This document shows, in pieces, positions 7,737 through 9,994 of a stretch of DNA of 17,466 nt. Positions within the stretch are counted from its first letter, which is position 1, and the number at the start of each line of letters is the position of its first letter. The notes under the pieces were generated by a model. The model searched no databases. It saw only the letters and a list, made by a program, of their open reading frames with translations, and was not told the DNA's origin. The position numbers were made by a program, and so were the translations under genes. Location: UHGV virus genome UHGV-0282409; one strand, given 5' to 3'. The stretch is from a virus.

Positions 7737-9994
7737 TTTCCGCCTCCTGCATCCCGCCCACGTTTTGCAGCCAGGGTCCAGGCTGATGAATGAGCTTCTC
7801 CGGGTTTATCTTCGGTCATACTGTTGCAGTGCCACAGCGAGCCCCCCCACGTCACCGTATCGCCGGGGTGGTAGGTTTCACCGGCTCTGAACACACCGCG
7901 GTAGAGCATCACCGGCAGGGAAAATGTTTTTTCCGTACGCTGGCCACTGCTCTGCCGGACCACCACAGAGAACAACCGCTCACCCGTCATGCTGACGTCA
8001 ATATCCGCCACCCCGTCAACCAGGCATTCCCATCCCCGCATCCCGTGCGTTTTTTCATACGCCCGCCAGAGTCCGCCCTGGTGTGTGGCATACGTGCCCC
8101 GGGGAAAGGATTTTTGATCGTCAATGGCGGGGAGTATTTCCAGAGCCGTGGCATCACGCCCGTCCTGCGGAGCCGGCAGGGCACTCACCGCATCCAGAAC
8201 CGCCTTCTGCAGAACATCCGGATCGTAGTCACGACCATCACGCGGAACAGGGATATGGCTTACAGCCTCCTTCACCATCTGTTCAAGCATCGGACGCACA
8301 TCATCCGGGGTGAGACTTTTACCGTCCGCCGGCTGCGGAATATTTGCGACCGCATCATTCACCGCCTGCTGCAGTACATCCGGATCATAATCACGACCAT
8401 CACGCGGTACCGGAATGGCCCCCACAGCGTCATCCACCATCGCCTGCAGAACCGGACGCACCTCATCCACCGTCACATGCTTCTGTAATACCGCCGACAG
8501 GGAAGTCAGTTTCTCTTCAAACGCTTGTGCCTGCGAGGCCATCTTCCCCTCAAATGTGCGCTGTAAATCCGCCAGCACTGTGGAGAATTCTTCTCCCAGT
8601 GCACGAATAATGGACAGTTCCCGTTCCGTCATTTTCTCAGTATCCCCCCTGAACATCGCTTTCACCGCATCATGCTCTGTTTCACTGATTGCCTTATTAC
8701 CGTCAGATGCGCCGTCAGGCAGCTGTGATGAAACTGTTTTCCCGGCAGACGCGAACGGATCCTCACGGGCATCACGACGGGACAGCGCCTCCAGACTGTA
8801 GTTCTGCTGCTGAAGATACAGTGCATCACCGCCGGCCAGGGGCGGCAGGTTCTCCCGTTTACGGGCCTCATTGGGCGTGAGAAGCGTATTTTTCACCGCA
8901 TCCCCCAGCGTTTTCATGCGCCGCTCACTGTCCATTCTCAGCAGCGTGGTGACATCAAATTCTGTACTCTCGTTTTCCCCCGTTTCCAGCGCCTCATCCA
9001 GTAACAGTTCAATGGACTCAATCAGCGTCTGCAGGCACTGGGAATAATACTGCTGCTCCAGCGCCTCCACGTTGTCACTGGAAGGCGGTTGTCCCACGCC
9101 AATCTTGTAGGCCGGGACACGGAACACCGAACAGACAATTTCAGCGGTCATCTTCAGTTGTTCCACCGTCTGCGCATCCACAGGTGAAAACGTCGTGGGG
9201 TTGTATTTTGCCCCGTTGCTCAGAATGGCCGTTTTCCCCGCATTTTCGCCTGTATACCCGCTGTCCCAGTTGCTCTTCAGTTTTTTCGCATTTTCTTCCG
9301 TAATACTGCCGGGGATCTCAATCACCCCGGACGGCCTGCCGCCATTTCTGAAAAAAGACGTCGAATTTTCCTGAATATGATGCCCCTGCGTGGCCGCCAG
9401 CCCGGCGGCATACACCGGCGGCAATCCTATAAGCGGATGAAAAAAACAGTTAAACCGGTCGTGGATCACTTCCCGGGCAGGCACCGTCACCGCCTCCGTG
9501 ATCCCGCAGTTCCGGTCCGGCGTGATGCGGTAGAACACCTCGCCGTCATCCGCCACCAGAGGTTCAACCCGGCTCCAGTCCAGAATACGCAGTTCTTTGA
9601 TCTGCCCCCGGGCATTACGGATTTTCAGCACCACCGTATTGCCATGACGCAGTTTGGCGTTCAGCCACAGTTCAAAAAACTGGATGCGGTTCTGCTGGGC
9701 GTTGGGACGACGACAGAGGCGGGCAATATCCCCCCGGCGCGTTTCCCTGCGTATCCCATGCGCATCCGTCTGCATAAGACGCAGCCGCATTTTGGCGATA
9801 TCCTGGGATATCAGCGAAATACATGCAAACACCGCATGAAAGGAGAGGACGGCTTCAGGATCGGCTTTCACGCCCTGCTGCCAGGCGCCGGAAAAGGGCT
9901 CAGCCACCGCCTGAAACAGGCTGGTCCAGCCCGCCTCTCTTACGTCACGTCCTGATTTCTGGTTTTTTCGGGTTCGCCGTAAAAGGTTCCACAT
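7733..9994 (-). CDS. portal protein (HK97-family portal core) with ~330-aa C-terminal extension
   Basis: Residues ~45-400 carry the portal core (FFRNGGRPSGVIEIPGSITEENAKKLKSNWDSGYTGENAGKTAILSNGAKYNPTTFSPVDAQTVEQLKMTAEIVCSVFRVPAYKIGVG). At 753 aa it is much longer than a typical HK97-type portal; the extra C-terminal part holds tandem repeats and a Trp/Gly-rich module. Confidence 0.8.
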   Translation of the reverse strand: MWNLLRRTRKNQKSGRDVREAGWTSLFQAVAEPFSGAWQQGVKADPEAVLSFHAVFACISLISQDIAKMRLRLMQTDAHGIRRETRRGDIARLCRRPNAQQNRIQFFELWLNAKLRHGNTVVLKIRNARGQIKELRILDWSRVEPLVADDGEVFYRITPDRNCGITEAVTVPAREVIHDRFNCFFHPLIGLPPVYAAGLAATQGHHIQENSTSFFRNGGRPSGVIEIPGSITEENAKKLKSNWDSGYTGENAGKTAILSNGAKYNPTTFSPVDAQTVEQLKMTAEIVCSVFRVPAYKIGVGQPPSSDNVEALEQQYYSQCLQTLIESIELLLDEALETGENESTEFDVTTLLRMDSERRMKTLGDAVKNTLLTPNEARKRENLPPLAGGDALYLQQQNYSLEALSRRDAREDPFASAGKTVSSQLPDGASDGNKAISETEHDAVKAMFRGDTEKMTERELSIIRALGEEFSTVLADLQRTFEGKMASQAQAFEEKLTSLSAVLQKHVTVDEVRPVLQAMVDDAVGAIPVPRDGRDYDPDVLQQAVNDAVANIPQPADGKSLTPDDVRPMLEQMVKEAVSHIPVPRDGRDYDPDVLQKAVLDAVSALPAPQDGRDATALEILPAIDDQKSFPRGTYATHQGGLWRAYEKTHGMRGWECLVDGVADIDVSMTGERLFSVVVRQSSGQRTEKTFSLPVMLYRGVFRAGETYHPGDTVTWGGSLWHCNSMTEDKPGEAHSSAWTLAAKRGRDAGGGK
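8150..8476 (-). repeat. tandem in-frame repeats inside the portal C-terminal extension (~162-bp unit, ~27-aa sub-repeats)
   Basis: Plus-strand ~8183-8310 and ~8345-8470 align at roughly 75-80% identity by eye (ctgcagaacatccggatcgtagtcacgaccatcacgcgg vs ctgcagtacatccggatcataatcacgaccatcacgcgg). Protein shows IPVPRDGRDYDPDVLQQAV.DAV twice, 54 aa apart, with a related half-unit between. Confidence 0.8.

What the first reader, a model, noticed from the sequence alone, without database searches (positions are those of the whole stretch)
7760..8476. Portal protein carries a long C-terminal extension with tandem repeats and two Trp/Gly motifs resembling carbohydrate-binding modules
After the portal core the ORF continues for ~330 aa. 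Residues ~507-615 form four ~27-aa repeats (consensus roughly AV.DAV..IPVP.DGRDYDPDVLQ), mirrored by a ~162-bp direct repeat in the DNA. Residues ~635-745 contain two related motifs (TYATHQGGLWRAYEKTHGMRGWECL and YHPGDTVTWGGSLWHCNSMTEDKPGEAHSSAWTL) whose Y..GD.V...G.LW.C...PG...W.L spacing recalls CBM5/12-type chitin-binding domains. A carbohydrate-binding-like module on a portal is unexpected. The repeat tract could alternatively form a helical barrel like the P22 portal C-terminus, or this could be a fused decoration or ejection protein.
Basis: partly seen in the sequence, partly recalled or inferred. Interest (0 to 1): 0.55.

Follow-up and report, generated by a model that had tools for sequence, protein, structure and literature searches.

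The report
Portal fused to neighbouring fibre gene
The long "tail" on this E. coli prophage portal protein is a separate neighbouring gene, encoding a fibre-like protein with a sugar-binding-type head, that one extra G has welded onto the portal reading frame.

Summary

The extension is not a portal domain. In Salmonella, Halomonas, phages BP-4795 and FSL SP-016, and about 70 genomes across Proteobacteria, residues 455-753 are a separate gene, here called X. X always lies between the portal gene and the head-tail adaptor gene, and its start overlaps the portal stop (ATGA or TGATG).

In E. coli relatives a poly-G run 11 nt upstream of that overlap decides the state. G5 gives two genes (76 IMG/VR contigs, 73 GenBank phages). 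G6 gives the fusion seen here (41 contigs, 10 phages, including phage 2851).

X has fibre architecture: an N-terminal helix, a stalk that varies in 54-aa steps and is collagen-like in other lineages, and a conserved head. I infer a trimeric glycan-binding virion fibre. The fused copy is probably tolerated inside the capsid, and free X may still be made from Met455. The function of X is untested. The finding is of moderate interest.

The parts
7733..9994 (-). Fused ORF of 753 aa (portal + X), annotated in RefSeq as 'phage portal protein' WP_059319614.1
8633..9994 (-). Portal moiety (residues 1-454). The HK97-family portal core is Pfam PF04860 at residues 54-382. Homology to solved portals ends near residue 420, followed by a ~35-aa tail.
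   Evidence: Separate portals of 445-478 aa in relatives.
8644..8649 (-). Poly-G tract, G6 here. It lies in the purine-rich Shine-Dalgarno-like stretch (AGGGGGGA) 11 nt upstream of the ATG of X. G5 in relatives gives two genes. G6 puts the portal frame into the X frame.
8630..8632 (-). ATG of Met455, the start codon of X in relatives. In G5 relatives the portal stop TGA (equivalent to 8629-8631) overlaps it as ATGA.
   Evidence: (P0275 and P0299 start MTERELSII...)
7733..8632 (-). X moiety (residues 455-753, 299 aa plus stop): a fibre-like protein that is a separate gene in most relatives
8486..8626 (-). N-terminal long helix of X (residues 457-503), the presumed anchor or oligomerisation segment
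   Evidence: helix at X residues 3-49; alignment
8153..8476 (-). Stalk: two 54-aa units (four 27-aa helix-linker half-units). Copy number varies among relatives in 54-aa (162-nt) steps.
7736..8149 (-). Conserved all-beta head domain of X (residues 616-753)
8012..8125 (-). First Trp/Gly motif unit (residues 624-661). It resembles unit 2 only weakly.
7760..7915 (-). Second Trp/Gly unit (residues 694-745), the CBM5/12-like unit
7410..7736 (-). Head-tail adaptor Ad1 (gp6-like), always the next conserved gene after X
10206..12143 (-). Prohead protease fused to major capsid protein (645 aa), upstream partner in the conserved module MCP - small ORF - portal - X - Ad1

Best explanation
The 753-aa ORF is an in-frame fusion of two genes that are normally separate and translationally coupled.

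Gene 1 is an HK97-type portal (residues 1 to about 450).

Gene 2, called X here (residues 455-753), is a fibre-type protein with three parts:
- an N-terminal ~47-aa helix;
- a stalk of 27-aa helix-linker repeats, which varies in 54-aa steps and is replaced by collagen Gly-X-Y repeats in other lineages, so it is most likely trimeric;
- a conserved ~135-aa beta head that contains at least one CBM5/12-like unit.

Shown: the fusion is caused by a G5-to-G6 expansion in the purine-rich ribosome-binding stretch of X, 11 nt upstream of the ATGA stop/start overlap. It is an inherited allele of one diversified E. coli prophage clade. The two-gene state is the rule elsewhere.

Inferred:
- X is natively a trimeric virion fibre of the head or neck that binds a glycan through its aromatic-rich head. 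This would resemble other non-essential head fibres and decoration proteins.
- In the G6 allele, the twelve portal-linked copies would sit at the portal's C-terminal crown inside the capsid, tolerated as cargo or clipped by the prohead protease.
- Free X can still be made by initiation at the retained SD-like stretch and ATG (Met455).
For: Separate genes in relatives:
- Salmonella: portal 478 aa + X 220 aa, with SD GAGAGGA and an 8-nt overlap.
- Halomonas: 454 + 206 aa.
- Metagenomic phages: 448 + 233 aa with a Pfam Collagen hit, and 445 + 242 aa.
- BP-4795: ORF58 454 aa + ORF59 461 aa.
- FSL SP-016: 451 + 347 aa.
- Of 70 genomic loci across Proteobacteria with both genes, 69 have X in its own frame with an ATGA, TGATG or other short overlap, in the order MCP - portal - X - Ad1.

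The poly-G switch:
- All fused E. coli-type loci have G6. Loci with G5 end the portal at ...AMFRGILRK* with TGA overlapping the ATG of X.
- Counts are 41 versus 76 IMG/VR contigs and 10 versus 73 GenBank phage records.
- G6 haplotypes cluster together, so the allele is inherited.
- X is kept intact at similar rates in both states, with pN/pS of 0.16 for G6 and 0.18 for G5.

Fibre architecture:
- Alignments.
- X lengths of 245/299/353/407/461/515/569 aa.
- Collagen stalks with up to ~128 overlapping GXY windows in Burkholderiales. Such a stalk would be longer than a capsid is wide.
- AF2 models.

The head domain:
- Foldseek against PDB and BFVD finds CBM5/12 modules, collagen-repeat phage proteins and tail fibres.
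- Among the 150 best cluster representatives, the ten longest were scanned with Pfam and only two carry a portal domain. The other 140 are 206-543 aa, with the X domain in the C-terminal part.

Precedents for head fibres and collagen-like capsid decoration, phi29 gp8.5 and SPP1 gp12, are reviewed in PMC7602432.
Against: - No experiment locates X in any virion, and no solved structure contains a homologue.
- In every solved portal I know of, the C-terminus lies in the crown inside the capsid (established knowledge, not tested here). A fusion kept in a diversified clade and in isolated Stx phages such as 2851, plus an independent fusion in Pantoea, could mean that the N-terminus of X normally sits at the crown. 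That would make X internal, not external.
- The head domain is the most conserved part across hosts as different as Enterobacterales and Rhizobiales. This is unusual for a host-specific receptor binder.
- The Pfam CBM_5_12 score is below the gathering threshold for this sequence.
- Internal initiation at Met455 is only inferred from the retained SD-like stretch and ATG.
Confidence: 0.6

Rival explanations
1. X is natively an internal protein that binds the portal crown. The analogy is by position to SPP1 gp7 and Mu F, which are encoded just after the portal gene and are sometimes fused to it. On this reading the fusion is a functional 'Rosetta-stone' covalent version: four trimers hang from the twelve portal C-termini inside the head, where they organise DNA or are released or ejected after cleavage.
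For: - X is strictly adjacent to and translationally coupled with the portal gene in ~70 lineages, even where extra genes separate X from the adaptor.
- Two independent fusions exist, the E. coli G6 clade and Pantoea.
- The fused allele is inherited, and X is still intact in it.
- Phage 2851 carries the fusion.
- The added protein would take up only a small share of capsid volume (my estimate).
Against: - Every structural relative of the head domain is an extracellular or virion-surface module: CBM5/12, tail fibres, collagen-repeat phage proteins.
- Collagen stalks of several hundred residues in some X proteins would exceed the inner diameter of a capsid.
- Stalk length varies freely in 54-aa steps, as in surface fibres.
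- No Pfam or PHROG hit to Mu F or gp7 was listed in the scans run at E <= 0.01 or looser.
- Adjacent, overlapping genes fuse easily by a single indel, so fusion alone is weak evidence of interaction.
Confidence: 0.2
2. The G-tract is a regulatory switch. It would work either as a phase-variable tract (heritable G5<->G6 slippage) or as a ribosomal +/-1 frameshift site on GGG-GGG. Either way it would set the ratio of free X to portal-tethered X, and so toggle display of the fibre.
For: - Three haplotypes with identical 570-nt flanks occur in both states.
- L013 and L014 share the rare 569-aa X allele, have near-identical portal cores and junction flanks, and differ at the G run.
- tRNA-Gly can re-pair perfectly after a +/-1 slip on the run (sequence).
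- The tract overlaps the ribosome-binding site of X.
Against: - G5/G6 is short for a contingency locus.
- G6 alleles form a clade rather than being scattered.
- The rare opposite-state singletons could be sequencing errors.
- Outside E. coli the junction has no homopolymer or conserved slippery heptamer: AGAGGA, AAGGAG and similar.
- No downstream stimulatory structure was examined.
Confidence: 0.1
3. The fusion is an artefact or a decaying pseudogene. Either the extra G is a sequencing error, or the fused allele marks defective prophages.
For: - Homopolymer runs are error-prone.
- This window is truncated in terL and joined to unrelated DNA.
- Some alleles in both states carry frameshifts or nonsense mutations in X.
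Against: - The identical fused ORF is present in many complete E. coli genomes: 252 records at >=99% identity.
- It is also present in independently sequenced phages 2851, YYZ-2008, Stx2a_WGPS6 and vB_EcoS isolates.
- G6 alleles are diversified yet stay in frame through 2-12 repeat half-units.
- The AVS0528 prophage has a complete terS-terL-head-tail module.
Confidence: 0.05

Closest known systems
HK97-family portal proteins (Pfam PF04860; PDB 8cez HK97 gp3, 9lbn)
   Same: Residues 1 to about 420 align over the full portal core. The gene sits in an HK97-like head-neck module with gp6-like adaptor, head closure protein and gp10-like protein.
   Different: Known members are about 400-480 aa. This ORF carries 300 further residues that belong to the next gene. 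Here the portal gene follows the protease-MCP gene instead of preceding it.
Phage head fibres and capsid decoration proteins with adhesin-like heads: phi29 gp8.5 (trimeric, repeating helix-turn-helix stalk) and SPP1 gp12 (collagen-like trimer)
   Same: X shares the anchor - repetitive trimer-type stalk - globular head layout. It is encoded within the head module. Collagen or short-helix repeats are interchangeable in the stalk (PMC7602432).
   Different: There is no sequence similarity. The attachment site of X is unknown. X is coupled to the portal gene and, in this allele, covalently joined to the portal C-terminus, which neither gp8.5 nor gp12 is.
CBM5/CBM12 chitin- and cellulose-binding modules (Pfam PF02839; e.g. 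S. marcescens ChiB, S. griseus ChiC 2d49, 2rts, 1aiw, 1ed7)
   Different: The Pfam score is sub-threshold and the match partial. The module is embedded in a larger 135-aa domain with an extra three-stranded sheet. Binding to any sugar is untested.
P22 portal C-terminal barrel
   Same: Both are extra residues after the crown of a portal ORF.
   Different: The P22 barrel is one continuous long helix per subunit forming a 12-helix tube (established knowledge). Here helices of 13-17 aa are broken by Pro/Gly linkers, followed by a beta domain. The segment is a separate protein in relatives.
SPP1 gp7 / Mu F minor head proteins
   Same: The gene lies immediately downstream of the portal gene and occasionally fuses with it (established knowledge for Mu F). 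This makes it a possible functional analogue under the internal-protein rival.
   Different: No Pfam or PHROG match was listed, and the architecture is entirely different.

Membership tests
HK97-family phage portal (PF04860) | Full-length match to the portal profile above the gathering score | tested here: met
   272.8 bits against a cut-off of 39.1, residues 54-382, profile positions 2-321 of 321. PDB portals 9lbn at E 9e-29 and 8cez at E 4e-20.
HK97-family phage portal (PF04860) | Residues 455-753 are part of the portal protein in the family at large | tested here: not met
   They are a separate ORF in 69 of 70 genomic loci and in BP-4795, FSL SP-016, Salmonella and Halomonas.
CBM5/12 carbohydrate-binding module (PF02839) | Pfam score at or above the gathering threshold (26.2 bits) | tested here: not met
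   19.5 bits for the whole ORF and up to 25.3 bits for the isolated domain, covering only profile positions 3-25 of 44. Some Klebsiella and Enterobacter homologues carry precomputed PF02839 hits, which another tool marks as faint for one of them.
CBM5/12 carbohydrate-binding module (PF02839) | Small three-stranded beta fold that superposes on solved CBM5/12 modules | tested here: met
CBM5/12 carbohydrate-binding module (PF02839) | Binds chitin, cellulose or another glycan through exposed aromatic residues | not testable with these tools
   Needs binding assays. The conserved Trp/Tyr positions are visible in alignments.
Collagen-like phage fibre proteins (PF01391) | Gly-X-Y repeat tract | tested here: not met
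   There are no GXY runs in the window protein. They are present at the equivalent position in many X homologues.
P22-type portal barrel | A continuous C-terminal helix of about 100 residues or more | tested here: not met
   AF2 secondary structure shows one 47-aa helix, then four helices of 13-17 aa separated by 12-13-aa linkers, then beta strands. This is a monomer prediction with low confidence in the stalk.
Programmed ribosomal frameshift sites | Conserved slippery sequence at the junction across the family | tested here: not met
   Junction sequences differ among lineages (AGAGGA..., AAGGAG..., no homopolymer). Within E. coli, only the G run and a variable A-rich stretch are present.
Mu F / SPP1 gp7 minor head proteins (PF04233) | Match to the Mu F profile | tested here: not met
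   No such hit was listed in the Pfam or PHROG scans of the ORF or of X.

The most novel reading that the evidence does not exclude
X is a portal-partnered fibre whose location is set by the poly-G tract. With G5, a free trimeric glycan-binding fibre is displayed on the virion. With G6, it is tethered to the portal crown inside the head. On this reading the tract acts as a heritable (or translational) switch of virion surface properties in E. coli prophages, including Stx phages. Alternatively, X is a previously unrecognised internal, crown-bound component of a very widespread HK97-like head module.
Probability: 0.12. Interest if true: 0.7.

Novelty: new variant of a known kind. Interest (0 to 1): 0.45.

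Why it matters
- **Annotation.** Thousands of database entries call X, or the fusion, a 'phage portal protein' or a 'gp6-like head-tail connector'. Some call the normal two-gene state a 'portal pseudogene'. The evidence here reverses that reading: the split state is the norm.
- **An uncharacterised structural family.** X is conserved next to the portal gene in one type of HK97-like head module across Proteobacteria. More than 1,100 cluster representatives match at E <= 1e-30. The module occurs in long-tailed Shiga-toxin phages and ST131-type prophages.
- **Possible role.** If X is a glycan-binding head or neck fibre, it could influence adsorption or retention on mucus or cell surfaces.
- **A testable puzzle.** Apparently viable phages carry a 300-570-aa fibre on every portal C-terminus. 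This raises a concrete question about what the inside of a capsid and the portal crown can tolerate.

Tried and rejected
- **Sequence search of X and of its profile against PDB chains.** Only weak local hits: the CIS baseplate protein All3316 at E 0.008-0.18, and chitinase CBMs. No homologue has been solved.
- **NCBIfam scan of X.** Nothing found.
- **Tandem Repeats Finder.** It did not report the 162-nt repeat. The repeat finder did.
- **Literature searches.** Searches for portal + collagen-like or head fibre, for Sakai prophage portal frameshifts and for phage 2851 found no paper describing X or the fusion. The original phage 2851 paper (PMC2583581) is not held, so its viability rests on my own knowledge of that paper's title and content.
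- **First dN/dS attempt.** It was invalid because truncated alleles were misaligned. It was redone on canonical alleles only. Recombination between G5 and G6 lineages still limits what that ratio shows.
- **Conserved -1 frameshift heptamer.** An A-rich stretch before the stop codon exists in some E. coli alleles only, so I rejected it as a family feature.
- **Search limitation.** In the two X-domain searches every listed hit was shorter than about 1.75 times the query length. Full-length architectures therefore had to come from contig look-ups and the representative search.
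Full report
**1. Checking the observation**

The minus-strand ORF 7733-9994 is intact and encodes 753 aa. Pfam places a complete Phage_portal domain at residues 54-382 (E 5e-81). The solved HK97-type portals 9lbn and 8cez align only up to about residue 420.

Residues 507-614 are two 54-aa units with 35/54 identical residues. 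Each unit is built from two ~27-aa half-units: a short helix followed by an (I/L)PxPxDGxD linker. The matching DNA repeat is 8187-8306 versus 8349-8468, with 162-nt spacing and 77% identity over 120 nt.

Both Trp/Gly motifs exist. The second gives a partial, sub-threshold Pfam CBM_5_12 hit of 19.5-25.3 bits against a gathering score of 26.2. The first gives none. The two motifs resemble each other only weakly (hhalign P 1.3e-3).

The sequence is 100% identical to a prophage of E. coli AVS0528, where the ORF is annotated 'phage portal protein'.

**2. What the extension is**

I searched with the last 138 residues. This returned proteins of about 190-240 aa from other bacteria that consist of a short N-terminal helix, a collagen Gly-X-Y tract or helical repeats, and this same C-terminal domain.

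Their genomic contexts settle the question. In each of the following, the portal is a normal-sized protein and the homologue of window residues 455-753 is the next gene. That gene overlaps the portal stop by a few bases and is followed by the gp6-like head-tail adaptor.

| Source | Portal (aa) | X (aa) |
|---|---|---|
| Halomonas prophage | 454 | 206 |
| Three metagenomic phages (X has a Pfam Collagen hit) | 448 | 233 |
| Another metagenomic phage | 445 | 242 |
| Closely syntenic Salmonella prophage | 478 | 220 |
| Phage BP-4795 | 454 | 461 |
| Salmonella phage FSL SP-016 | 451 | 347 |

I call this gene X. In Salmonella, X has a canonical GAGAGGA Shine-Dalgarno sequence, and its ATG lies 8 nt before the end of the portal gene.

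Of 80 loci fetched from species-representative genomes, 70 had both genes. These span Enterobacterales, Pseudomonas, Burkholderiales, Rhizobiales, Sphingomonadales and others. The order protease/MCP - portal - X - adaptor holds throughout, and X is in its own frame in 69 of the 70. The overlap is ATGA in 29, TGATG in 11, and another short overlap in the rest.

In a profile search of 1.84 billion cluster representatives, the family is large: 1,149 representatives at E <= 1e-30. I scanned the ten longest of the 150 best hits with Pfam, and only two carry a portal domain. The remaining 140 are 206-543 aa.

**3. How the fusion arose**

Among E. coli-type loci from IMG/VR, some have the portal core and X in one ORF and others do not. 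The difference is a single base.

- Fused loci read ...ATGTTCAGGGGGGATACTGAGAAAATGACG... (G6).
- Unfused loci read ...ATGTTCAGGGGGATACTGAGAAAATGACG... (G5).

With G5, the portal ends ...AMFRGILRK*, and its TGA overlaps the ATG of X as ATGA. In the window the run is at 8644-8649, and the ATG (Met455) is at 8630-8632.

The run lies in the purine-rich stretch that sits 9-12 nt before the X start in all lineages. It is therefore probably the ribosome-binding site of X.

Exact-pattern scans found G6 in 41 IMG/VR contigs and G5 in 76. Among GenBank phage records, the junction spans 161 nt (G6) in 10 and 160 nt (G5) in 73.
- G6 records include phages 2851, YYZ-2008, Stx2a_WGPS6 and vB_EcoS isolates.
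- G5 records often carry two CDSs, both named 'portal protein'.
- Some records label the split state 'portal protein (pseudogene)'.

G6 haplotypes are each other's nearest neighbours: 1-3 differences in 570 nt, against often 10-24 to the nearest G5. The fusion is therefore an inherited allele of a diversified clade. Three haplotypes were seen in both states.

X stays intact at similar rates in both states, and its head domain has pN/pS of 0.16 (G6) and 0.18 (G5). Recombination limits what these ratios prove.

A second, independent fusion with a different junction exists in Candidatus Pantoea communis. It is 1,237 aa with about 20 repeats.

**4. Anatomy of X**

- **N-terminus.** A ~47-aa helix (AF2).
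- **Stalk.** In Enterobacterales it is made of 27-aa helix-linker units organised in 54-aa blocks. Complete X lengths are 245, 299, 353, 407, 461, 515 and 569 aa, and fused ORFs vary likewise. In Burkholderiales, Rhizobiales and others the same position holds collagen Gly-X-Y repeats, up to several hundred residues. Collagen repeats form obligate trimers (established knowledge), so I infer that X is trimeric.
- **Head.** About 135 aa, the most conserved part, predicted with pLDDT 89 as all-beta.

Against predicted viral structures, 40 hits reach E <= 1e-3. Many are 'collagen triple helix repeat' phage proteins, CBM5/12 or ChiC_BD proteins, and tail fibres.

The CBM5/12-like reading is therefore supported at the level of a predicted fold, but not by the Pfam threshold.

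The P22-barrel idea is not supported. The helices are 13-17 aa long, interrupted by Pro/Gly linkers, and interchangeable with collagen.

**5. Most likely mechanism**

*Shown.* This ORF joins a portal to the product of the neighbouring gene through a +1 G insertion. The neighbouring gene encodes a fibre-type protein with a CBM5/12-like head. Both arrangements occur in sequenced, isolated phages.

*Inferred.* X is natively a trimeric virion fibre of the head or neck that binds a glycan. By analogy, phi29 gp8.5 head fibres and the collagen-like SPP1 gp12 decorate capsids and are thought to aid adhesion (PMC7602432).

Four points favour an external location:
- All structural relatives of the head are surface or secreted modules.
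- Stalk length is freely variable.
- Some collagen stalks would be longer than a capsid is wide.
- X travels with the head module while tail modules differ.

In the fused allele, the twelve X copies should lie inside the head, because portal C-termini form the internal crown (established knowledge). By my estimate they would occupy only a few percent of the capsid volume, and they could be tolerated or clipped by the prohead protease. Free X could still be made from Met455, whose upstream purine-rich stretch and ATG are unchanged.

I put about 0.9 on the fusion and fibre description. I put about 0.45 on the external glycan-binding role, and 0.6 overall.

**6. Rival explanations**

- (a) X is natively a crown-bound internal protein, and the fusion is a functional covalent version. 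This is favoured by strict coupling to the portal gene, two independent fusions and persistence of the G6 clade. It is disfavoured by the nature of the domains and by stalk lengths. Confidence 0.2.
- (b) The G tract is a phase-variable or frameshift switch. A few haplotypes occur in both states, and tRNA-Gly could re-pair after slipping. However, G6 forms a clade, and no slippery site is conserved outside E. coli. Confidence 0.1.
- (c) The fusion is an artefact or pseudogene. This is contradicted by identical sequence in many complete genomes and independent phage records. Confidence 0.05.

**7. Comparison with known families, and novelty**

The portal moiety is a standard HK97-family member. 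X is not a member of any curated family that I could match. PHROGs files it as 'portal protein' only because of the fusions.

X works like a head fibre or decoration adhesin, but no defining feature of those families could be tested by sequence. The sequences themselves are already public and annotated.

As far as the searched literature shows, three things appear new:
- the extension is a distinct, widespread gene;
- the fused form is a derived poly-G allele;
- the usual 'pseudogene' reading of the split state is backwards.

I rate this a new variant of a known kind, of moderate interest.

**8. Side observation**

The window matches E. coli AVS0528 only over positions 1-13033. The remaining 4.4 kb has lower GC and no match in 5,426 E. 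coli genomes. It encodes a DUF5689 / M949_1556-family lipoprotein. The window is therefore probably a chimeric contig that cuts terL.

Noticed in passing
window 13034-17466: The window is 100% identical to E. coli AVS0528 only up to 13033, inside terL. The remaining 4.4 kb has lower GC (0.45-0.52) and no match in 5,426 E. coli genomes. It encodes a DUF5689 / M949_1556-family lipoprotein (13571-14794) and an 866+ aa protein with no family hit. This looks like a chimeric assembly or a foreign junction. The '439-aa' terL ORF (12207-13526) is an artefact of that join.
   Followed up: partly
window 10206-12143 (-): The prohead protease (Peptidase_S78) and major capsid protein (Phage_capsid) are one 645-aa fusion protein, and it lies upstream of the portal gene rather than downstream. 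The same order holds in nearly all related loci. In Burkholderiales the protease and MCP are split into two ORFs.
   Followed up: partly
window 9940-10161 (-): A small 73-aa ORF (WP_001063099.1, hypothetical) sits between the MCP and portal genes and overlaps the portal start by ~55 nt. A 63-65-aa ORF occupies the same position in the Halomonas and Salmonella relatives and in one metagenomic phage.
   Followed up: no
window 5483-6199 (-): The major tail protein carries a C-terminal immunoglobulin-like domain (Ig_3, Ig_2, I-set hits at residues ~150-225). This is a second possible surface-adhesion module on the same virion.
   Followed up: no
database annotation of X homologues (P0047, P0275, P0299, P0325; AP012540, AP012538, AP012530): Stand-alone X proteins are named 'phage portal protein', 'phage gp6-like head-tail connector protein' or 'Carbohydrate binding domain'. 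Some phage records label the split portal/X state 'portal protein (pseudogene)'. These names appear to have spread from the fused alleles.
   Followed up: yes
L003-L005 (Klebsiella contigs) and many IMG/VR loci: Draft assemblies often break inside the 162-nt repeats of X. This yields 'partial' proteins at contig ends.
   Followed up: no
L236 1719-5462 (Candidatus Pantoea communis): This is an independent portal-X fusion of 1,237 aa. It has a Pro/Asp/Thr-rich linker and about 20 copies of a 27-aa repeat with a PEPLPDI linker motif before the conserved head.
   Followed up: partly
P0128 (4,341 aa, from the representative search): A giant protein matches the CBM-like unit of X in 37 separate stretches. 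Its context and origin are unknown.
   Followed up: no
window 4789-5516 (-): ORFs at 5094-5516 and 4789-5070 correspond to the tail assembly chaperone and the 'tail assembly protein T' of the lambda G/GT type. The expected programmed frameshift between them was not examined.
   Followed up: no
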